Sequence record: CP053388.1
Reading direction: 5' to 3' (one strand)
Origin: Escherichia phage CMS-2020a
DNA: 64,000 nt
Numbering within the stretch: position 1 is the stretch's first letter; each line of letters opens with the position of its first letter. Positions 20,440-64,000 of this stretch are shown here, piece by piece. The translations under genes were made by a program, and so were the position numbers. Under the pieces are notes generated by a model, which did no database searches, was not told where the DNA came from, and saw only the letters and a list, made by a program, of their open reading frames with translations.

Positions 20440-20526
20440 TGGCGGAGAGTAATGGAATCGAACCATCATCGCTTGCGCAATGGGACGGTTTTCAAGACCG
20501 CTTGAGCACCATGCTCCCTACTCTCC
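20440..20526 (-). tRNA. tRNA-Ser (anticodon TGA), type II with long variable arm
   Basis: hand-folded: acceptor GGAGAGT/ACTCTCC, anticodon loop CTTGAAA, T-loop TTCGATT, encoded CCA; D-arm somewhat atypical. Confidence 0.55.
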
Positions 20527-20750
20527 GGCCGTTGTGGTGGCCGGTACTGAATCTCCGGCATACGGTGCAGCCAATTAGGACTACGGACGATCACCGCTCG
20601 CGAAAGGGAAGATTTGCGGCCGCATTTCCCTAACACCCAAGAAAGCTATCGCATCAGTCTGCGAATCCACCACAACGGTAAGATCACTACCTTTCGACCA
20701 GTCATTGTGCACATGAACGACGATTAACCGTAATGATCTTATCGTTGTAT

Positions 20751-20826
20751 TGGTGCCGGTTAACGGACTCGAACCGCTGACATCCTGCTTACAAGGCAGG
20801 CGCTCTACCAACTGAGCTAAACCGGC
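20751..20826 (-). tRNA. tRNA-Thr (anticodon TGT)
   Basis: hand-folded cloverleaf: acceptor GCCGGTT/AACCGGC, D-stem GCTC/GAGC, anticodon loop CTTGTAA, T-loop TTCGAGT, CCA encoded. Confidence 0.8.
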
Positions 20827-20830
20827 AATT

Positions 20831-20917
20831 TGGTGGGGAGTGATGGAGTCGAACCACCCGAGTCGCCATGACAGTAGATTTACAGTCTACACCGCTACCT
20901 CTACGGACTAACTCCCC
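20831..20917 (-). tRNA. tRNA-Tyr (anticodon GTA), type II
   Basis: acceptor GGGGAGT/ACTCCCC, anticodon stem-loop GTAGA-CTGTAAA-TCTAC, long variable arm, T-loop TTCGACT, CCA encoded. Confidence 0.7.
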
Positions 20918-20922
20918 TAAAT

Positions 20923-20997
20923 TGGCGATGGTGGGTGGATTCGAACCACCGACCAGTTGGTTAACAGCCAACTGCTCTACCGCTGAGCTACACCATC
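20923..20997 (-). tRNA. tRNA-Asn (anticodon GTT)
   Basis: clean cloverleaf: acceptor GATGGTG/CACCATC, D-stem GCTC/GAGC, anticodon loop CTGTTAA, T-arm GGTGG-TTCGAAT-CCACC, CCA encoded. Confidence 0.85.
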
Positions 20998-57919: not shown

Positions 57920-59494
57920 TCACTCGTTCTCTTGAGTAGATGAGTCCCCATTCCCTCGGGGTTGATCTTGCCCGCTTTCTTGGGCTGCACCACGATAATA
58001 AGTAAGTACTGACTTATTTTCAAGGGTATTTAGATCATTTTTTGGAGGAAAATTCAAGAGATCTTTATCAAATTCCTTTTTCATCGCCTCAGTAATGTTC
58101 GGGAAAATCTTCTCAATAAGCATTTCCATCTGGTGACGACGTACAGAGTCCGGTGCCTGAAGTAATGACAGTTTCTCGGCAACAGAAAATTCATCAGTAA
58201 GGCCACGAATATCGAAACTTTCTGGATACGCAATTAAAGAGTGGTCTTCGTCCAGATCTGCCCCCATCCATTTCGCAACCAGTAGCATGATTTGGCGTTC
58301 AGCCCTTTCCAGACGCTCTGCTTTTGTGACAAGCAAGCTATTTACACGCTGGAAGTCATACATTTTTGCGGCACCAGATGAATTATCGATTCCCTGTGCG
58401 TTGTCCTGCTTCGTTCGCTCACCAGCTACACCAACTGAATGGTAGATTTCGTTAATCACCGTCTTAATCGTAGTGATGATCATCTGAGCTTGTTTCGGGT
58501 CTGGTGACAGATAAAACGGCTGGTTTCCACCTTCAGAATCGTAGGTGAAGACTCGCTTTGTGCCCATTTCAAGCACTTTAGTGTGGTTTTCATCACCAGG
58601 TAAAAGCGACTGTACCGGTATAGCCAACTGGCTAAATGTCTGATCCTGAATAATGGCATCAAGGTTTGACAGATAGTTTGCAACCGCACGATCAAGATAA
58701 GCGATATCATCGATCAACGATGGGCTGAAATACGGTGATTCACTTTCTCCAATACAATCAACAGGAAACACAGGAACTACGCCGAGATTATGCTCACCGC
58801 TATCCTCTAAAATAACTTTTGCCTGACGGCGACCTGCTCCACCAGCGCCCTTCTTCACTTCCTCACGGAACAGATACCACTCGTTTTGTGTCCACAGACG
58901 ATAACGTTGGTATTCCTGACCTGTAGAAGTAAAAGGATCTGCGTCATCACGAGCGACTTCCACAATTAACGCCCACAACATATTCCCGTCGTCGTCCCAT
59001 GCCACATCCAGCATTTGCTGAGGTGAAATCCAGTAGGCGTAGGCGCGAGCATCTTTCTTTTTCTCGTCAGCTACTGACTCAACATCACCACTCATCGTGC
59101 TATCGACAACAACCCATATGCGACCGTAAATAGACGACTGCAAATCAATAGCGGCCATAAATGAGTCAATAGAGGCATTCTGGCGAGTCGCACGTTTCCA
59201 GAAATTGCGGATCTGCTCTGGTGCCTCTTCGATATTTCTATGAATGTCTTCTTTAAAGAGATATTTGTTGATGAGGTTTACCACCTCACGAGTGTGGTTG
59301 AAGCGATAAGCACGTTCAACTCGCTCCTTAAACTCCTGATCTCCCTCTTTAAAGTAACGAAAGATATTGTCTGTAAACCAACCACGCCCGCCAGCGTAAG
59401 TGCTGGCGAGGAAGTCCCAATGTTCTTTTTTCTTTTCGTATTCCGGGTGGCGTCGCGCCACCAGATCCTTAATTTGTTTGTCGTTCAATTCCAT
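57920..59494 (-). CDS. portal protein
   Basis: 524 aa directly after terminase large subunit. Confidence 0.7.
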   Translation of the reverse strand: MELNDKQIKDLVARRHPEYEKKKEHWDFLASTYAGGRGWFTDNIFRYFKEGDQEFKERVERAYRFNHTREVVNLINKYLFKEDIHRNIEEAPEQIRNFWKRATRQNASIDSFMAAIDLQSSIYGRIWVVVDSTMSGDVESVADEKKKDARAYAYWISPQQMLDVAWDDDGNMLWALIVEVARDDADPFTSTGQEYQRYRLWTQNEWYLFREEVKKGAGGAGRRQAKVILEDSGEHNLGVVPVFPVDCIGESESPYFSPSLIDDIAYLDRAVANYLSNLDAIIQDQTFSQLAIPVQSLLPGDENHTKVLEMGTKRVFTYDSEGGNQPFYLSPDPKQAQMIITTIKTVINEIYHSVGVAGERTKQDNAQGIDNSSGAAKMYDFQRVNSLLVTKAERLERAERQIMLLVAKWMGADLDEDHSLIAYPESFDIRGLTDEFSVAEKLSLLQAPDSVRRHQMEMLIEKIFPNITEAMKKEFDKDLLNFPPKNDLNTLENKSVLTYYRGAAQESGQDQPRGNGDSSTQENE

Positions 59495-59520: not shown

Positions 59521-60777
59521 CTATCGAGAACCACCAAGAATAACACGGTTTTTGACTGGATACCTACGATGTACTGGATAGCCCAATGCGTCTGCACTAT
59601 GCTCAATGCCACCTGTCTTATCCATATCTCGTGTTCCAGGCTTGTAGATGACTTTTTCCAGTGAATCAATCAAATGCTTGCACTTCGGATCGATATACAG
59701 CCGGATATCTCCAGATGCGGACATCAGCATTCGGTTAACAGCATTAACACGATCCGCAATTGGCGGGTGCTTTTTCGAATAATCGACACGTAAGAATCCC
59801 TTCTCTTTGAATATGTCTACGTCAGACTCCCCACGAGCATGTTGGCGATAAGCACCTGCCGGATCTGGAAATACCGTTACCTGTGATTTCCAGCGCCAGA
59901 AGCGTCTCTCAAGCTCATCACAAACTTCTGCCGTGTTAGAGGAAAAGAGCACCAATTCATCAATTGCCCATAGCTCACCATTTGGCTGAGGTTGCAAAAT
60001 TACTGAAGACATCGGGTCAATGTTGAAGTCCTGCCCTACCCATATAGGCAACCGAGGGTTGAACTGAAGCGGTTTTACATGCACGTTACGATCGAACGGG
60101 TAGTAAACGCGCCCGGACATGTTCTCAAAGCTGGCCAGGTACTCCTGAGCGAACGATTTGGGGTCCATATCGTTCTTAGCAGCTTCAATTTCCGCCGTAG
60201 GTACAAACGGAGAATCGGCAGTTACAAACTGCCAGCTCTTCCACTGTCCCTTTCTTTGCAGCTCTACGTTCTGGCCTATCGTCCACAGTTTGTGAAATTC
60301 CGAGAAGCCTTTTGGCGTACCAATGATCAGTGCACCGCCGCGTGTCGATGAAAGAGTAGGTCGTAACACCTTGTACCAGGTGTCAGCCTTCATATCCTGA
60401 AATTCATCAAGCACTACAAAATGCAACGCTACGCCGCGCAGAGTGTCAGGCTTATCAGCACCTTTGAGGGCGATCTCCGAACCGTTCTTCAACACGATTG
60501 TCATCGTGGTGTCGTTCTTTTTCCTAACCCACTTACGAGGCAGAACTTCCTGTAGATCGTCCCACAAAATCTGGCGAGCCATCTGGTAAGTAGGAGCGAC
60601 ATACCAGACCCTTTGCTTTTTTTCCTTTGCCGCCGCACGAATAATAGTGGAGATCGACAACCGGGATTTTCCCCAGCGTCGACCAGCACAAACAACTTTA
60701 AATCGATGCGGAGACTGGAAGACTTTCATCTGTCCAGAATGCAGTTGCACAAGACTGAGCGAGGACGGGATTGCCAT
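59521..60777 (-). CDS. terminase large subunit
   Basis: Walker A-like AGRRWGKS, Walker B VLDEFQD, acidic nuclease-type C-terminal region. Confidence 0.75.
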   Translation of the reverse strand: MAIPSSLSLVQLHSGQMKVFQSPHRFKVVCAGRRWGKSRLSISTIIRAAAKEKKQRVWYVAPTYQMARQILWDDLQEVLPRKWVRKKNDTTMTIVLKNGSEIALKGADKPDTLRGVALHFVVLDEFQDMKADTWYKVLRPTLSSTRGGALIIGTPKGFSEFHKLWTIGQNVELQRKGQWKSWQFVTADSPFVPTAEIEAAKNDMDPKSFAQEYLASFENMSGRVYYPFDRNVHVKPLQFNPRLPIWVGQDFNIDPMSSVILQPQPNGELWAIDELVLFSSNTAEVCDELERRFWRWKSQVTVFPDPAGAYRQHARGESDVDIFKEKGFLRVDYSKKHPPIADRVNAVNRMLMSASGDIRLYIDPKCKHLIDSLEKVIYKPGTRDMDKTGGIEHSADALGYPVHRRYPVKNRVILGGSR

Positions 60778-61409
60778 TATTCGTCCTCCCCTTCACTTCC
60801 ATCATCTGTCGCATCAAATTCGCTTAGAGCTTCTTCTTCCAACGTCTCAAGCAATTCGTCATCGATGATTTCAGGCTCGTCGTCTTCCTGACGTAATTTC
60901 GCCACCTGGGAAGGCGTAAGCTCACCAAATACCAGGTTCGGAATTTCTTCCTCGTCATTTTCCGCATGATCCATGCCCAATGCTTTGGACGAAACTTCAA
61001 AGCATTTTGCAAGGGTATTACTGGCTCTCTGTAAGCTCTTGAGAGAATCCTCAATCGCCCCTAAAGGCTTACCCTCACGTTTGGCCGTAGTGACTTCGAC
61101 CATCACCATCTGCCCCAACGCATACGCCCAGCCGTCATAACGTGTACGACGTTCTTCTATCTTTTCCGCACGGGCTTTAGCGCGAAGCTCTGCGTCAGAT
61201 TTAAGAGACTCACGAACCATCTTCCCAACAGAGTCCGCGCCTTTCTCTAATCCTCGCTTTTTGAAATGTCTGGAGAGTGTTTCACGACGAATGCCGTACT
61301 CTTCCTCCAGCTTTGAGAGTGTATATTCGCCTGACGTCCATTTGGCTTCAGCTTCGGCCCACTCCGCTGGTGTCAGGCGAGTTTTTACCTCGTCTTTTTC
61401 GACCGTCAT
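60777..61409 (-). CDS. terminase small subunit candidate
   Basis: 210 aa with HTH-like N-terminal region and acidic C-terminus; ATGA-coupled to large subunit. Confidence 0.55.
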   Translation of the reverse strand: MTVEKDEVKTRLTPAEWAEAEAKWTSGEYTLSKLEEEYGIRRETLSRHFKKRGLEKGADSVGKMVRESLKSDAELRAKARAEKIEERRTRYDGWAYALGQMVMVEVTTAKREGKPLGAIEDSLKSLQRASNTLAKCFEVSSKALGMDHAENDEEEIPNLVFGELTPSQVAKLRQEDDEPEIIDDELLETLEEEALSEFDATDDGSEGEDE

Positions 61410-61525
61410 AGATCCCTCTAAAACACACAGAGCGCGTCCATGCGCTCTAAAACAACTTGTTTACTGCATCTGCTAACCAACTTGTTTTCTGGGGTGTTTA
61501 ATTAGGTCTGGCATGTCTTACGAAG

Positions 61526-61580
61526 CCTGCTTCCGTATATATTTAATAAGTTACTTATTATTTATATATACAGAAGCAGG
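61526..61580. repeat. 55-bp near-perfect palindrome, copy 2 (identical to 28806..28860)
   Basis: exact 55-bp match read in sequence. Confidence 0.9.
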
Positions 61581-61604
61581 TCTTTAAATAAGCTCCCAGA
61601 CCGA

Positions 61605-61871
61605 TTACATCACCAGTAACTTCGCTTTGGCTCGACCTAAAGTAGTTAACCCAAGAGTTCGGCGGTGATAGCGATTGTCACTGCGTTGGCGCGTATGCCC
61701 TTTCTCCACCAGCCCCTTTTTTATCAGAGCGCGAATTGAGAACTGGATACTTTGCTTGGTTGTCTTGTACGGCAAAACTTCAAGCAATTCGTCCAGGTCA
61801 AGTAGATGACCTCGCTCATAACCGAGATTGAGCGTTTTGATGATGTCCTTTTGTTTATCGGTTAACGTCAT
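61605..61871 (-). CDS. small winged-helix/HTH protein (88 aa), candidate late regulator
   Basis: basic helix-rich ORF upstream of terminase regulatory region. Confidence 0.35.
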   Translation of the reverse strand: MTLTDKQKDIIKTLNLGYERGHLLDLDELLEVLPYKTTKQSIQFSIRALIKKGLVEKGHTRQRSDNRYHRRTLGLTTLGRAKAKLLVM

Positions 61872-61880
61872 GGCAAATCC

Positions 61881-62780
61881 TTATGCCGGTAAAGCAATTT
61901 CTAACGGTTTATCCAAAGGTTGTTTGTCGAATGCCAGCAGTGGCAGCGTGTCAGGCAGTCGACGACCAAAGTCAGGGTTTCGATACACACCATACAACGG
62001 AGACGTAAAGCTCAGGTTGTGAATGTCCTTGAGCAGCTTCACAATGCTGGCCTCGTCCACCAGACTGTCGGCAATGTCCTGAATCGTCGTGCCACGATTC
62101 CGCCCAGCTTTTGCCAGGGAACTGTTCTTGTGGTAGTCCGCCACCAGATCACGCAGTGCACGGCGACGACGAGACTCGCTCATAGCGAACAACTCTTTGA
62201 CGATCGCCTCGTTATCACCCGGGTCGGAGCGGAAATGGCGCTGGAACACACGCAGTGCACTTTCATAGCTCTTCGGTCGCTCAGGGCGGATGAACTTAAA
62301 CCCTGCTTTCATGGCGAAGGGATTGTATTTGCTCATCGATGACTGGATCTCAATGATTGGCCGGTCATGCATCCTGCTAACCAGGTTAATCATTCGATAA
62401 GAGACGCCTACGCCACGGTACTGAGTATCCACAACTGAGCGGCTGATCACCGCAAAGTTGTTATTCACGTACCGGCCCCAGTACTGGTTAGCCACGGTGG
62501 TATTGGTAGTTGGTTTCAACTTAGGAAACATGCGATGGCGAGGTGCCAGCAGAAGTTTCGGGTAAGCCATAACCACGACGCCCACCAGACGGTCATCCAG
62601 TTCGCAGCGATAGTATGTTGGCGCGAAAGGTTTGCCGTCTGTTTTGTAGTGAAGCGATTTAAGAGCGTGCCAGTCCTCTACAGTTCCCTTTGTGACAGTC
62701 ATTCGCTCCAGAAAGTCCAGATGACGCGGAAACTCTTCAGGGCGGTAGCGTTTGATGATGATATCTGCCATCTCGATCAC
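61881..62780 (-). CDS. GNAT-like acetyltransferase-fold protein with C-terminal extension
   Basis: motif-A-like QYRGVGVSYRM; 299 aa. Confidence 0.4.
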   Translation of the reverse strand: MIEMADIIIKRYRPEEFPRHLDFLERMTVTKGTVEDWHALKSLHYKTDGKPFAPTYYRCELDDRLVGVVVMAYPKLLLAPRHRMFPKLKPTTNTTVANQYWGRYVNNNFAVISRSVVDTQYRGVGVSYRMINLVSRMHDRPIIEIQSSMSKYNPFAMKAGFKFIRPERPKSYESALRVFQRHFRSDPGDNEAIVKELFAMSESRRRRALRDLVADYHKNSSLAKAGRNRGTTIQDIADSLVDEASIVKLLKDIHNLSFTSPLYGVYRNPDFGRRLPDTLPLLAFDKQPLDKPLEIALPA

Positions 62781-63031
62781 CTGCGCTCGATATTGGCATT
62801 GATGAAATCCAGGCGAAGAGACTCCATCGCCCCTACCATGACATACGGGCGCCCGCCGTTATGCCAGCAATCAAGAACACTGCCGTCGTTGTTGATCATC
62901 AACAGCGCCAGGCTCTGGCTTTTTCCTTCTCTGGCGTGCTGAAGTGCTTCTTCCAGCAGGCGGATGACTTCCACGTTGTTGTTATCAGTCTCTTTCGATG
63001 GCTTCAGCTCTACGATCTTCAAATCAGGCAT
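62777..63031 (-). CDS. hypothetical protein (84 aa)
   Basis: ORF overlapping neighbours on both sides. Confidence 0.4.
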   Translation of the reverse strand: MPDLKIVELKPSKETDNNNVEVIRLLEEALQHAREGKSQSLALLMINNDGSVLDCWHNGGRPYVMVGAMESLRLDFINANIERR

Positions 63032-63662
63032 ATTCCACCTTCACGCGTTCTTTGTAGTGCTTGGTGATCTGCATATCCGGGCGCAGCGCGTTCTTCAGGT
63101 CTTCGTGAGTCGTCGCCACCATTACCGTCGCACCAACCTTTCGAGCGGCACGCTGGAGGTTAGATGCCACAACCTGAGCGGTTACACGGTCGAGAACAGC
63201 GCCGAACTCGTCAGCAGCCCACACTTTAGCGCCTGACTCAATCAGTTTGGCAATCTTGAGACGATATTTCTGACCGTCTGACATTTCAGAAGGCTTGCGA
63301 ACAAACAGATATGCATCGTTCAGACCAGCCATAGATAACAACCCAAGCGCATCACTGGTAGTTTTGCCCAGTTGGTCAATGACGTTAACCTCATTATCGA
63401 AGGTAAAATCATCGATGGAGGCCACAGATAGCCCTTCATCCTTCATCTGGTGTTGCAGCTCGCGCAGCACAACGGATTTGCCGGAACCGGATTGGCCGGT
63501 AATGTACACCACATCGCCCTGCTTCACTTCCAGCTCCAGATTGTCGTAAAGCGTCCACTCTTTTTCGTCCAGGCCAAGCCCGAACGACTCAGCGATTTCC
63601 AACGTGCGCGTGGTTTTATTTACGCGTGTCTGAAACGATACGTTGATGATGTATTTGCTCAT
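63024..63662 (-). CDS. minimal ABC-type ATPase (nucleotide-binding domain only)
   Basis: Walker A GQSGSGKS, signature-like SDGQKYRL, Walker B VWAADEF, H-loop TTHE. Confidence 0.7.
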   Translation of the reverse strand: MSKYIINVSFQTRVNKTTRTLEIAESFGLGLDEKEWTLYDNLELEVKQGDVVYITGQSGSGKSVVLRELQHQMKDEGLSVASIDDFTFDNEVNVIDQLGKTTSDALGLLSMAGLNDAYLFVRKPSEMSDGQKYRLKIAKLIESGAKVWAADEFGAVLDRVTAQVVASNLQRAARKVGATVMVATTHEDLKNALRPDMQITKHYKERVKVEYA

Positions 63663-64000
63663 GCAGCCATCTCCCCGGAAGAGATCTTCTCCGCATATGC
63701 CACAAATGCGTCTACCCCGCTTTCTCCCGTCATTTCTTCCATGTGGGCAAGCAAATCACCAACAACAATGGCAGAGCCAGCAGGGAGCGTTTTAAAGCCC
63801 AATACGTCGACAACACGTACTTCTTCCGCTGCAACTTCACGACTGATCTCGGTGTGTTCATCCTTCTGTCGTTTAGTTTCTTCGCCAAGATCGATAACTA
63901 GCGAGTCGGTGTCCATTTCTTCTGTCATACTGCCAACGAGAACATTCAACTCACGCTCTTCAAAGCCGAAAACCTCGATATCGTCCAGAACAAGCGACTC
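63659..64000 (-). CDS. hypothetical acidic protein, 5' end beyond window
   Basis: ORF runs to the window edge; stop overlaps ABC ATPase start. Confidence 0.3.
   Translation of the reverse strand, partial: ESLVLDDIEVFGFEERELNVLVGSMTEEMDTDSLVIDLGEETKRQKDEHTEISREVAAEEVRVVDVLGFKTLPAGSAIVVGDLLAHMEEMTGESGVDAFVAYAEKISSGEMAA

What the first reader, a model, noticed from the sequence alone, without database searches (positions are those of the whole stretch)
61605..64000. Operon of minimal ABC ATPase, 84-aa protein, GNAT-like protein and small HTH protein upstream of the terminase
63024-63662 encodes a 212-aa protein with the full ABC motif set (Walker A, signature-like SDGQKYRL, Walker B, H-loop) but only ~55 residues between Walker A and signature, so it is a stripped-down NBD with no transmembrane partner nearby. 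It is ATGA-coupled to flanking ORFs and followed by a 299-aa protein with a GNAT-type motif plus a ~120-aa extension, then an 88-aa HTH protein. I do not recognise this combination as a standard packaging, regulatory or defence module.
Basis: partly seen in the sequence, partly recalled or inferred. Interest (0 to 1): 0.6.

Follow-up and report, generated by a model that had tools for sequence, protein, structure and literature searches.

The report
Split ABC–GNAT acyltransferase beside phage terminase
The small "ABC transporter" ATPase and the acetyltransferase-like protein upstream of the terminase in this SSU5-type phage-plasmid are two halves of one widespread but never-tested enzyme, which has been predicted to put an acyl mark on phage DNA before packaging.

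Summary
The genes exist as described, on the minus strand of an SSU5-like phage-plasmid (98% identical to Escherichia phages CMS-2020a, Cyrano and PhiR41_1). It is not a transporter, and no operon protein has a membrane segment.

The 212-aa ABC ATPase and the 296-aa GNAT-fold protein are a split form of the fused ABC–GNAT family (COG2401, "MK0520"). Each half matches the corresponding part of about 450–500-aa fusion proteins: ABC E=1e-40 to 1e-62, GNAT E=1e-15 to 1e-28.

The operon starts beyond the window with two ParB-like genes. The order ParB, ParB, ABC, [variable slot], GNAT, small basic wHTH, gap, TerS-like, TerL, portal is kept in lytic ~110-kb phages of Pseudomonas, Rhizobium and Stenotrophomonas. 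More distant versions occur in Streptococcus, Lactococcus and Gordonia phages.

Fused forms lie within 6 kb of TerL in 63 of 80 viral contigs. They are mostly archaeal in genomes, and one phage lineage fuses them to a family B DNA polymerase.

The 84-aa gene is optional cargo: the slot is empty in 23, holds this gene in 39 and holds another insert in 24 of 86 close or moderately close loci.

Aravind's group predicted this ABC+GNAT pairing to acylate a DNA base. I found no experiment. It is a new member of a known, uncharacterised kind.

The parts
63659..64000 (-). 3' part (113 codons) of the second ParB_N (ParB/Srx-fold) gene. The gene and a first ParB_N paralogue continue beyond the window end.
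   Evidence: phrog_930 'ParB-like' E=9e-38, profile positions 129-223. The translation aligns with the C-terminus of SSU5_126, 222 aa. SSU5_125 and SSU5_126 both hit Pfam ParB_N. It overlaps the ABC gene as ATGA.
63024..63662 (-). Minimal soluble ABC ATPase (212 aa), the ATPase half of a split ABC-GNAT enzyme.
62777..63031 (-). 84-aa gene of unknown function: variable cargo in the slot between the ABC and GNAT genes, not a core part.
   Evidence: phrog_796, unknown function. Absent from Cyrano, PhiR41_1 and CMS-2020a. Among L001-L083 plus the cultured close relatives, the slot is empty in 23, holds this gene in 39 and holds a ~540-bp alternative insert in 24. Homologues sit in head-morphogenesis modules of unrelated Serratia, Klebsiella and Vibrio phages.
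61881..62771 (-). GNAT-fold acyltransferase-like protein (296 aa from ATG 62771; 299 aa if GTG 62780) with a ~130-aa C-terminal helical/beta extension. It is the transferase half of the split ABC-GNAT enzyme.
61605..61871 (-). 88-aa basic probable winged-helix protein, conserved directly after the GNAT gene. Possibly a DNA-binding specificity or late-regulatory factor.
   Evidence: phrog_900; weak wHTH profile hits. A small ORF occupies the same position in all relatives, with detectable similarity in L084, L087 and L095. 18 K+R against 9 D+E.
61410..61604 (-). Conserved intergenic control region between the module and the terminase genes. It holds a long inverted repeat with an AT-rich core (61526-61580), two direct repeats AAACAAGTTG(G/T)TT (61449-61488), and a hairpin plus T-rich tail (61428-61449) 20 nt before the TerS-like start.
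   Evidence: The architecture is conserved, with compensatory changes in the hairpin, across SSU5-like relatives. Canonical terminators sit at the same place in distant relatives L084 and L087.
60777..61409 (-). 210-aa DNA-binding protein in the small-terminase position (TerS-like).
   Evidence: phrog_867 'DNA binding domain' E=2e-100. It abuts TerL, and the position is conserved in all relatives.
59521..60777 (-). Large terminase subunit.
   Evidence: Terminase_6N E=3e-9 and Terminase_6C; phrog_10250 and phrog_2.
57920..59494 (-). Portal protein.
   Evidence: phrog_145 E=1e-140.

Best explanation
The ABC ATPase (63024-63662) and the GNAT-fold protein (61881-62771) are the two subunits of one ATP-driven acyltransferase. 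Together they are a split version of the fused ABC-GNAT (COG2401-type) proteins of archaeal and bacterial viruses.

I infer that the ABC subunits dimerise on ATP as in other ABC engines, and that each carries a GNAT subunit. I further infer that the complex, helped by the two upstream ParB/Srx-fold proteins (NTP-binding DNA-associating partners), acts on the phage's own DNA late in infection. It would transfer an acyl or aminoacyl group from acyl-CoA or a charged tRNA to the exocyclic amine of a base. The DNA that the adjacent terminase packages would then carry a protective or marking modification.

The 88-aa basic wHTH protein is a conserved accessory, either DNA targeting or control of the promoter/terminator region upstream of terS. 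The 84-aa gene is unrelated cargo.

Shown: the fold and motifs of both proteins, their orthology to the two halves of the fusions, conserved synteny, and recurrent linkage to terminase, ParB and other DNA-modification-type genes.
Inferred: physical complex, DNA as substrate, type of acyl group, timing.
For: Rosetta-stone fusion:
- The A1 profile of the GNAT-like protein finds 964 cluster representatives. Among the best 150 listed, at least 60 are 440-900 aa long and carry the homologous region C-terminal to an ABC domain.
- The window's ABC protein matches those ABC domains over its full length at E=1e-40 to 1e-62, against 1e-13 for generic ABC_tran.
- Family-specific motifs are shared in both halves.
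- In Cyrano and PhiR41_1 the two genes overlap directly.

Likely catalytic competence:
- All ABC motifs are invariant or nearly so, apart from the Q-loop glutamine.
- The GNAT motif-A loop R119-x-x-G122 is invariant.

Links to DNA:
- The module is always preceded by one or two ParB_N genes in SSU5-like, nickie-like, Rhizobium and Stenotrophomonas phages, and in Streptococcus 315.4, Lactococcus P335 and Gordonia Axumite.
- Two protein clusters less than 50% identical to each other (P0189, 1260 aa; P0175, 791 aa) fuse a family B DNA polymerase to ABC-GNAT. P0189 sits in a phage replication module.
- One fusion carries a TFIIB repeat, and one has an intein in the ABC domain.
- Neighbours include ASCH (7 of 80 viral loci, and 315.4), a weak Dam-like methyltransferase hit, Amidoligase_2 and an annotated methyltransferase.
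- The GNAT and 88-aa proteins are basic.

Link to packaging:
- A TerL homologue is present in 63 of 80 viral contigs carrying fused genes and is the next gene upstream in 53.
- TerL lies within 5 kb in 53 of 80 genome contigs. Another locus places ABC-GNAT between portal and capsid genes.

Precedents:
- Mom is a GNAT that acylates adenine in dsDNA (PMC13219725). It is the best viral structural match.
- Some phage T-dioxygenases need a ParB-like partner.
- ParB-fold proteins fused to methyltransferases, acetyltransferases and ASCH exist (PMC12704722).
- ASCH proteins hydrolyse N4-acylcytosines (PMC6972931).
Against: - No experiment on any member was found in the papers I could search.
- No modification of SSU5-like or nickie-like DNA is reported in the papers I could read.
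- The ABC domain is of the transporter, ABCE and ABCF class, not the SMC, RecF, MutS or UvrA DNA-binding class.
- ParB is absent near most archaeal or viral fused genes: 1 of 80 and 7 of 80 loci.
- ASCH linkage is a minority feature, and none was found in this window.
- Adjacency to terminase could instead point to a protein substrate in the packaging machinery.
- A terminator-like hairpin separates the module from terS, so co-expression with the terminase is not shown.
Confidence: 0.5

Rival explanations
1. The ABC-GNAT enzyme acetylates a protein rather than DNA. Candidates are a component of the packaging or head machinery (terminase, portal, capsid, scaffold) or a host protein such as RNA polymerase. 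ATP hydrolysis would be used to engage or remodel the substrate.
Confidence: 0.2
2. It is an ATP-dependent RNA or tRNA acetyltransferase that works like TmcA/NAT10 (ATPase plus GNAT making N4-acetylcytidine). It would tune host or phage tRNAs late in infection.
For: The ATPase+GNAT logic is that of TmcA, and ASCH neighbours are consistent with ac4C chemistry. These phages carry tRNA genes: 4 in the window at 20440-20997, and tRNA-Met and tRNA-Asn about 2 kb from the module in nickie. The ABC fold class includes the ribosome/tRNA-associated ABCE1 and ABCF proteins.
Against: There is no sequence relationship to TmcA, whose ATPase is helicase-type, and no tRNA-binding domain was detected. The linkage is to ParB, terminase and DNA polymerase rather than to tRNA genes, and the window's tRNA cluster is about 40 kb away.
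Confidence: 0.1
3. The module is a non-modifying packaging or DNA-handling accessory. ParB proteins and the ABC ATPase would recognise or organise the pac region or concatemer for the terminase, and the GNAT fold would serve as a binding (pseudo-enzyme) domain.
For: The constant position is immediately upstream or downstream of terminase genes in several unrelated phage and virus lineages of bacteria and archaea. ParB-fold proteins bind and clamp DNA (PMC12704722).
Against: The GNAT motif-A loop and a set of polar residues are invariant over 40% sequence identity, which argues for catalysis. A separate TerS-like gene is present. The polymerase fusions place the protein in replication modules, away from packaging genes.
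Confidence: 0.1
4. It is a conflict module (defence, anti-defence or toxin-antitoxin), for example a GNAT toxin or an ABC-sensor system carried by the phage-plasmid.
For: The ABC protein gives PADLOC hits to MADS mad3 (1.7e-13) and mad8 (1.4e-8). The slot inside the module collects cargo such as DUF2829, Phage_gp49_66 and RyR genes. DUF2829 is, from my memory and not checked here, the Tad2 anti-Thoeris family. GNAT toxins exist (rank 50).
Against: The PADLOC hits are generic ABC similarity and far weaker than the matches to ABC-GNAT fusions. The GNAT protein has no PADLOC hit. The module is part of the conserved backbone of lytic phages as well as phage-plasmids, in a fixed position, which is unlike accessory defence islands. 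There is no RHH or antitoxin-type partner.
Confidence: 0.07
5. It is the ATP-binding subunit of an ABC transporter, as most database annotations say.
For: Annotations read 'ABC transporter' or 'ABC transporter ATP-binding subunit'. The best structural matches are transporter NBDs.
Against: No membrane protein is in the operon. The NBD is shortened and its Q-loop glutamine is not conserved. The protein labelled 'ABC transporter ATP-binding subunit' (phrog_886) is a GNAT-fold protein with no P-loop. The partner domain in fusions is a GNAT, not a permease.
Confidence: 0.02

Closest known systems
Fused ABC ATPase-GNAT proteins (COG2401, 'MK0520: ABC-type ATPase fused to a predicted acetyltransferase domain'), which Iyer, Aravind and co-workers predicted to be a phage DNA-base acylation system (NAR 2013, as cited in Viruses 2021, PMC7824862)
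   Same: Both halves are homologous, with family-specific motifs: RT..VAE.FGLG.DE, SDGQKYR and DRxTA in the ABC half; G..DW/Y..L..HYK/R, R-x-x-G and Y..W/Y.NP in the GNAT half. Both are virus-borne and uncharacterised. Public records already use this name for the window's genes.
   Different: Here the enzyme is split into two genes, and the junction is used as an insertion slot for cargo. The GNAT half and its C-terminal extension have diverged (about 26-29% identity to the fusions). Two ParB_N genes and a small wHTH gene are fixed partners. I could link the published example, Tenacibaculum phage pT24, only weakly (tblastn E=4e-10 on the ABC part; hhalign E=7e-4 on motif A).
Phage Mu Mom (GNAT-fold enzyme that converts adenine in dsDNA to N6-carbamoylmethyladenine using Gly-tRNA)
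   Different: There is no sequence-family relationship. Mom works alone, without an ATPase or ParB partner. The window protein has a 130-aa extension and keeps an R-x-x-G loop typical of CoA-using GNATs. The donor and the target base are unknown.
TmcA / NAT10 RNA cytidine acetyltransferases
   Same: An ATPase module is coupled to a GNAT module to N-acetylate a nucleobase, which is a useful mechanistic analogy.
   Different: The ATPase there is helicase-type, not ABC. The substrates are tRNA and rRNA. No homology beyond the GNAT superfamily was detected.
ParB-dependent phage DNA-modifying enzymes (clade E T-dioxygenases) and ParB-fold fusions to methyltransferases, acetyltransferases or ASCH
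   Same: An orphan ParB/Srx-fold protein is encoded next to, and in the dioxygenase case is required by, a DNA-modifying enzyme in phages.
   Different: The catalytic partner differs (GNAT+ABC instead of a TET/JBP dioxygenase or a methyltransferase). Here there are two ParB paralogues with acidic C-terminal regions, and their requirement is untested.
Soluble transporter-class ABC ATPases that drive enzymes or ribosomes (PhnK/PhnL of C-P lyase, component A2 of methyl-CoM reductase activation, ABCE1, ABCF)
   Different: The window NBD is shorter, is a single domain, and partners a GNAT.

Membership tests
ABC ATPase superfamily | Walker A, ABC signature, Walker B with catalytic Glu, D-loop and H-loop, in the ABC alpha/beta fold | tested here: met
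ABC ATPase superfamily | Q-loop glutamine | tested here: inconclusive
   The window has Q97 in VIDQLG, but the column is not conserved in the family; only the ID..G frame is.
ABC transporter (NBD of a membrane transporter) | Cognate transmembrane or permease subunit encoded with, or fused to, the NBD | tested here: not met
   No 19-residue window exceeds Kyte-Doolittle 1.5 in any operon protein. Fusion partners are GNAT, PolB and TFIIB domains, never permeases. Neighbours are ParB, terminase and portal genes.
GNAT superfamily | GNAT alpha/beta fold | tested here: met
GNAT superfamily | Motif A pyrophosphate-binding loop (Q/R-x-x-G-x-G/A) | tested here: met
   QYRGVG at 117-122 and R119-G-V-G122-V-S. 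R119 and G122 are invariant in 38 homologues. The fused relatives have YRGIGLG.
GNAT superfamily | Acyl-CoA (or aminoacyl-tRNA) dependent acyl transfer | not testable with these tools
   This needs biochemistry.
Fused ABC-GNAT family (COG2401-type; predicted DNA-acylation system) | ABC domain of the family-specific type | tested here: met
   phmmer E=1e-40 to 1e-62 over residues ~3-211 against at least 50 fused proteins; 39-50% identity.
Fused ABC-GNAT family (COG2401-type; predicted DNA-acylation system) | GNAT-like domain of the family-specific type, including the C-terminal region | tested here: met
   Profile A1 hits residues ~200-480 of the fused proteins at E=1e-15 to 1e-28, often through profile position ~265. 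Motifs are shared. phrog_11143 matches both window proteins.
Fused ABC-GNAT family (COG2401-type; predicted DNA-acylation system) | Both domains in one polypeptide | tested here: not met
   They are two genes, separated by the 84-aa gene here and overlapping by 4 nt in Cyrano and PhiR41_1. This is a split variant.
Fused ABC-GNAT family (COG2401-type; predicted DNA-acylation system) | Acyl modification of a DNA base | not testable with these tools
   This is a prediction only (PMC7824862). No experimental report was found.
Mom family | Sequence membership in the Mom clade of GNATs and stand-alone action on dsDNA | tested here: not met
TmcA/NAT10 RNA acetyltransferases | DUF1726 + helicase-type ATPase + GNAT + tRNA-binding domain | tested here: not met
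   No such Pfam or NCBIfam hits. The ATPase is of the ABC type.
GNAT toxin-antitoxin modules (TacT/AtaT type) | ~170-aa GNAT toxin paired with a small RHH-type antitoxin; accessory, mobile distribution | tested here: not met
   The protein is 296 aa with an ABC partner. It has no PADLOC hit. It occupies a fixed backbone position in lytic and temperate relatives.
MADS defence system (PADLOC mad3/mad8 hits) | Specific similarity to Mad proteins and presence of the other MADS genes | tested here: not met
   The best-scoring stretch of the mad3 hit covers only the P-loop region, residues 31-68. mad8 scores E=1.4e-8, against 1e-62 for ABC-GNAT fusions. The neighbours are phage packaging genes.
ParABS partition system | ParA ATPase partner, and a ParB with an HTH and C-terminal dimerisation domain | tested here: not met
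   The ParB_N proteins are ~220-230 aa with acidic tails. No ParA gene is adjacent, and the adjacent ATPase is ABC, not ParA/MinD type.

The most novel reading that the evidence does not exclude
The split ABC-GNAT enzyme, with its ParB partners, installs a DNA modification not yet described in viruses: an ATP-dependent N-acyl or aminoacyl mark on cytosine, adenine or guanine. N4-acylcytosine is suggested by the occasional ASCH neighbours. The mark would be placed just before or during packaging. The same chemistry would operate in SSU5-type phage-plasmids that are very common in clinical Klebsiella, E. coli and Salmonella, in lytic ~110-kb phages, in Gram-positive prophages, and in tailed viruses of Bathyarchaeia and Nitrososphaeria. 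In one lineage it would be tethered to the replicative polymerase.
Probability: 0.35. Interest if true: 0.8.

Novelty: new member of a known kind. Interest (0 to 1): 0.55.

Why it matters
If the prediction holds, this would be the second GNAT-based DNA modification after Mom, and the first that needs an ATPase.

The family is widespread. One 90%-identity cluster of the ABC protein alone was seen on at least 1000 contigs.

A new base modification in phage-plasmids of clinical Enterobacteriaceae would bear on how these elements evade restriction and spread resistance genes. It would also affect sequencing and cloning of their DNA, and the search for enzymes that write acyl marks on DNA.

The system is directly testable, because SSU5-type elements and PhiR41_1 grow on Salmonella LT2 and E. 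coli K-12.

More modestly, the work corrects a pervasive misannotation ('ABC transporter', 'ABC transporter ATP-binding subunit') and shows which genes of the cluster are core and which are cargo.

Tried and rejected
- Transporter reading: rejected. There are no membrane segments, and the fusion partners are never permeases.
- Sequence search of the GNAT-like profile against PDB found nothing (E>1). Only fold comparison worked.
- The afdb50 fold library was unavailable.
- The two key Aravind-lab papers (NAR 2013 gkt573; NAR 2020 gkaa726) and Cell Cycle 2009 are not in the library. What they say about this system is known to me only through the sentence in PMC7824862 and from memory.
- Searches for COG2401/MK0520 in papers returned nothing relevant.
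- Searches for DNA N4-acetylcytosine in phages returned only plant and RNA work.
- Papers on SSU5-like plasmids and nickie-like phages say nothing about these genes or about DNA modification.
- The PADLOC mad3/mad8 hits were judged to be generic ABC similarity.
- The sigma-70 promoter scan found no site in 60700-64000, so the promoter is unassigned.
- ParB and ASCH profile searches of the window's ORFs found nothing. The ParB profile covered only the N-terminal domain, which lies outside the window.
- I did not model the ABC-GNAT complex or a natural fusion.
- In one search my first gap calculation was distorted by stop-to-stop ORF boundaries. I therefore cite only presence within 5 kb from that call.


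Full report
**What the window is.** The region 61400-64000 is 97-98% identical to Escherichia phages CMS-2020a, PhiR41_1 and Cyrano. It is 88% identical to Salmonella phage SSU5 and 81-83% identical to Klebsiella SSU5-like elements. The window therefore comes from an SSU5-type phage-plasmid.

All genes of the finding lie on the minus strand. In transcription order they are:
- the 3' part of a ParB_N gene that runs off the window (63659-64000);
- the ABC ATPase (63024-63662);
- an 84-aa gene (62777-63031);
- the GNAT-like gene (61881-62771, or 62780 if a GTG start is used);
- an 88-aa gene (61605-61871);
- a 195-bp intergenic region;
- a 210-aa DNA-binding protein in the small-terminase position (60777-61409);
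- TerL (59521-60777) and the portal gene (57920-59494).

In SSU5, Cyrano and PhiR41_1 the operon begins with two ParB_N genes. These are transcribed divergently from a UvsW-like helicase gene.

**Checking the observation: the rest.** The 88-aa protein gives weak winged-helix hits and is strongly basic. The gene junctions show tight coupling, but only one is a literal ATGA.

**The two enzymes are one enzyme.** A profile of the GNAT-like protein was searched against 1.8 billion cluster representatives and found 964 relatives. The close ones are ~290-320 aa. Among the best 150 listed, at least 60 are 440-900 aa with the homologous region at residues ~200-480. Pfam shows an ABC domain in front of that region.

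The window's separate ABC protein matches those N-terminal domains over its whole length at E=1e-40 to 1e-62. That is 39-50% identity, far above its similarity to generic ABC proteins. Family-specific motifs run through both halves. One PHROG profile (phrog_11143) matches both window proteins.

This is the architecture that COG lists as COG2401, 'MK0520, ABC-type ATPase fused to a predicted acetyltransferase domain'. Some public records already attach that name to these very genes. The pair is thus a split form of a fused enzyme. In Cyrano and PhiR41_1 the two genes overlap directly.

**Core and cargo.** I surveyed L001-L083 (80 close or moderately close SSU5-like viral contigs plus SSU5, PhiR41_1 and Cyrano). 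The space between the ABC and GNAT genes takes one of three states:
- empty in 23 loci;
- holding the 84-aa gene in 39 loci;
- holding a ~540-bp insert in 24 loci, which in the one locus read (L052) encodes a 185-aa HExxH-motif ORF.

Distant relatives carry other small genes there: Phage_gp49_66, RyR and DUF2829. Homologues of the 84-aa protein occur in unrelated Serratia, Klebsiella and Vibrio phages, and in the two contexts read they lie inside head-morphogenesis modules. The 84-aa gene is therefore not part of the machine. The small gene after the GNAT gene is always present.

**Conservation of the neighbourhood.** At 41-47% identity of the GNAT protein, the order is unchanged: helicase (divergent), ParB, ParB, ABC, [slot], GNAT, small gene, gap, TerS-like, TerL, portal. 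This holds in three groups:
- elements from Ectothiorhodospira, a Piscirickettsiaceae MAG and a metagenome;
- cultured lytic ~110-kb siphophages: Pseudomonas nickie and relatives, Rhizobium RHEph10 and RHph_N1_15, and Stenotrophomonas BUCTxx99;
- Xanthomonas JGB6, where the ABC and GNAT matches lie within ~1 kb of each other, although I did not read the surrounding gene order.

Much more distant versions keep the same logic:
- Streptococcus prophage 315.4: ParB_N, ABC, mini-GNAT, ASCH, TerL.
- Lactococcus P335: ParB_N homologue, ABC, mini-GNAT, TerS, TerL.
- Gordonia phage Axumite: gp1 ParB, gp2 fused ABC-GNAT, gp3 methyltransferase, gp4 terminase.

For these distant versions the GNAT assignment rests on weak profile matches (E=1e-4 to 6e-5). 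I treat them as probable relatives.

**The fused family.** In viral metagenome contigs, a TerL homologue is present in 63 of 80 loci and is the next gene upstream in 53. An ASCH gene follows in 7.

In a one-genome-per-species collection, at least 566 loci encode relatives. The best 80 are almost all archaeal: Bathyarchaeia, Nitrososphaeria, Aigarchaeota and one Asgard. A few are Firmicutes. TerL lies within 5 kb in 53 of those 80.

Other loci show these arrangements:
- portal | ABC-GNAT | capsid;
- ABC-GNAT, Amidoligase_2, TerL, portal;
- a weak Dam-like methyltransferase hit just upstream.

Two protein clusters fuse a complete family B DNA polymerase to ABC-GNAT. One of them, found in 35 blocks of the collection index, sits in a phage replication module. 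One fusion ends in a TFIIB repeat, and one has an intein in the ABC domain.

**What it most likely does.** The common denominator of all partners is DNA: ParB-fold proteins, replicative polymerase, terminase and portal, methyltransferase, ASCH, and basic wHTH. A GNAT that acylates a base in dsDNA exists, namely Mom, which uses Gly-tRNA (PMC13219725). Phage DNA-modifying enzymes that need a ParB-like partner exist. ParB-fold fusions to methyltransferases, acetyltransferases and ASCH are documented (PMC12704722). ASCH proteins hydrolyse N4-acylcytosines (PMC6972931).

Iyer et al. [quoted passage not shown] I could not read that paper. My evidence independently leads to the same reading and places the window's genes in that family as a split variant.

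I therefore favour an ATP-driven, ParB-assisted acylation of phage DNA ahead of packaging, with confidence 0.5. That the two proteins form one enzyme I hold at about 0.9. The substrate, the donor and the timing are inferences.

The ABC fold class (transporter, ABCE, ABCF and PhnK-like) fits an engine that clamps or gates a partner enzyme. It does not fit a DNA-threading ABC.

**Rivals.**
- Protein acetylation of packaging or host proteins: 0.2.
- RNA or tRNA acetylation, TmcA-like: 0.1.
- A non-catalytic packaging accessory: 0.1.
- A conflict or toxin module: 0.07.
- A transporter subunit: 0.02.

The fold alone cannot separate the first two from the main reading. The polymerase fusions and the ParB, ASCH and methyltransferase neighbours are what tip the balance.

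**Regulatory region.** Between the 88-aa gene and the TerS-like gene lie three elements:
- a 17-nt-arm inverted repeat around an AT-rich core;
- two direct repeats;
- a hairpin with a T-rich tail 20 nt before the start codon.

The architecture is conserved, with compensatory changes in the hairpin. Distant relatives have textbook terminators at the same place. This resembles a late promoter followed by a terminator, with a small DNA-binding protein encoded just upstream. It raises the possibility that the 88-aa protein is a late regulator rather than part of the enzyme, and that the module is not co-transcribed with the terminase.

**Novelty and value.** The genes, their families (PHROGs 293, 886, 796, 900) and the COG name are already in databases, and the functional prediction for the ABC+GNAT pairing is published. 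I therefore rate this as a new member of a known, though experimentally uncharacterised, kind.

What this analysis adds:
- proof that the two SSU5 genes are the split halves of that family;
- the delimitation of core and cargo;
- the breadth of the ParB and terminase linkage;
- the polymerase fusions;
- the archaeal virus reservoir.

The interest lies in an abundant, genetically tractable system that could reveal a new DNA modification.

Noticed in passing
window 61410-61604 (minus strand): Conserved control region between the 88-aa gene and the TerS-like gene. It has an inverted repeat CCTGCTTC-[AT-rich]-GAAGCAGG (61526-61580), direct repeats AAACAAGTTG(G/T)TT (61449-61488), and a hairpin plus T-rich tail (61428-61449) 20 nt before the ATG. 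The hairpin shows compensatory changes in relatives, and distant relatives have canonical terminators at the same spot. This suggests a late promoter plus regulated terminator.
   Followed up: partly
window 62777-63031; L052 7447-8004; L084 6961-7999; L094 5043-5898: The junction between the ABC and GNAT genes is an insertion hotspot. It is empty, holds the 84-aa gene, or holds a ~540-bp insert (a 185-aa HExxH-motif ORF with no Pfam hit in L052). In distant relatives it holds Phage_gp49_66, RyR and DUF2829 genes. DUF2829 is, from memory only, the Tad2 anti-Thoeris family.
   Followed up: partly
L184 3468-3740; L185 3501-3755: In the two contexts read, homologues of the 84-aa protein lie inside head-morphogenesis modules of unrelated phages. 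In Serratia Opt-155 the gene sits between the portal and head-morphogenesis genes, and in a Klebsiella prophage it follows the major capsid gene. This hints at a virion- or assembly-associated role.
   Followed up: partly
L090 8001-11783 (also L091, L092, L173, L179; a 1310-aa ABC-containing ORF in L155 may be similar): A 1260-aa protein of an uncultured phage fuses a complete family B DNA polymerase (exo + pol) to ABC-GNAT. It sits in a replication module with a 5'-3' exonuclease, Prim-Pol, RecA, RNA ligase, an SMC-like ATPase and a dGTP_diPhyd_N protein.
   Followed up: partly
P0163 (847 aa), P0155 (665 aa): One fused ABC-GNAT protein has an intein with a LAGLIDADG endonuclease inserted right after Walker B of the ABC domain. 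Another ends in a TFIIB repeat.
   Followed up: no
L105, L110, L111, L114, L120, L127, L135, L145, L151-L153, L156, L160, L162 and others: In many IMG/VR contigs the fused ABC-GNAT gene, preceded by TerL, ends within a few to ~200 bases of the contig end. It may lie next to a genome terminus, a provirus boundary or an assembly-breaking region.
   Followed up: no
L261 4989-9586: In a Fredinandcohnia (Bacillaceae) prophage, ABC-GNAT is followed by an Amidoligase_2 gene, then the terminase and portal genes. A GNAT-amidoligase fusion also appeared among the viral fold matches.
   Followed up: no
window 20440-20997 (minus strand): A cluster of four tRNA genes: Ser-TGA, Thr-TGT, Tyr-GTA and Asn-GTT.
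   Followed up: no
window 61881-62771 and public records: phrog_886 and RefSeq call the GNAT-fold protein 'ABC transporter ATP-binding subunit', although it has no P-loop. One Klebsiella record names the ABC protein 'adenylyl-sulfate kinase'. This misannotation is widely propagated.
   Followed up: yes
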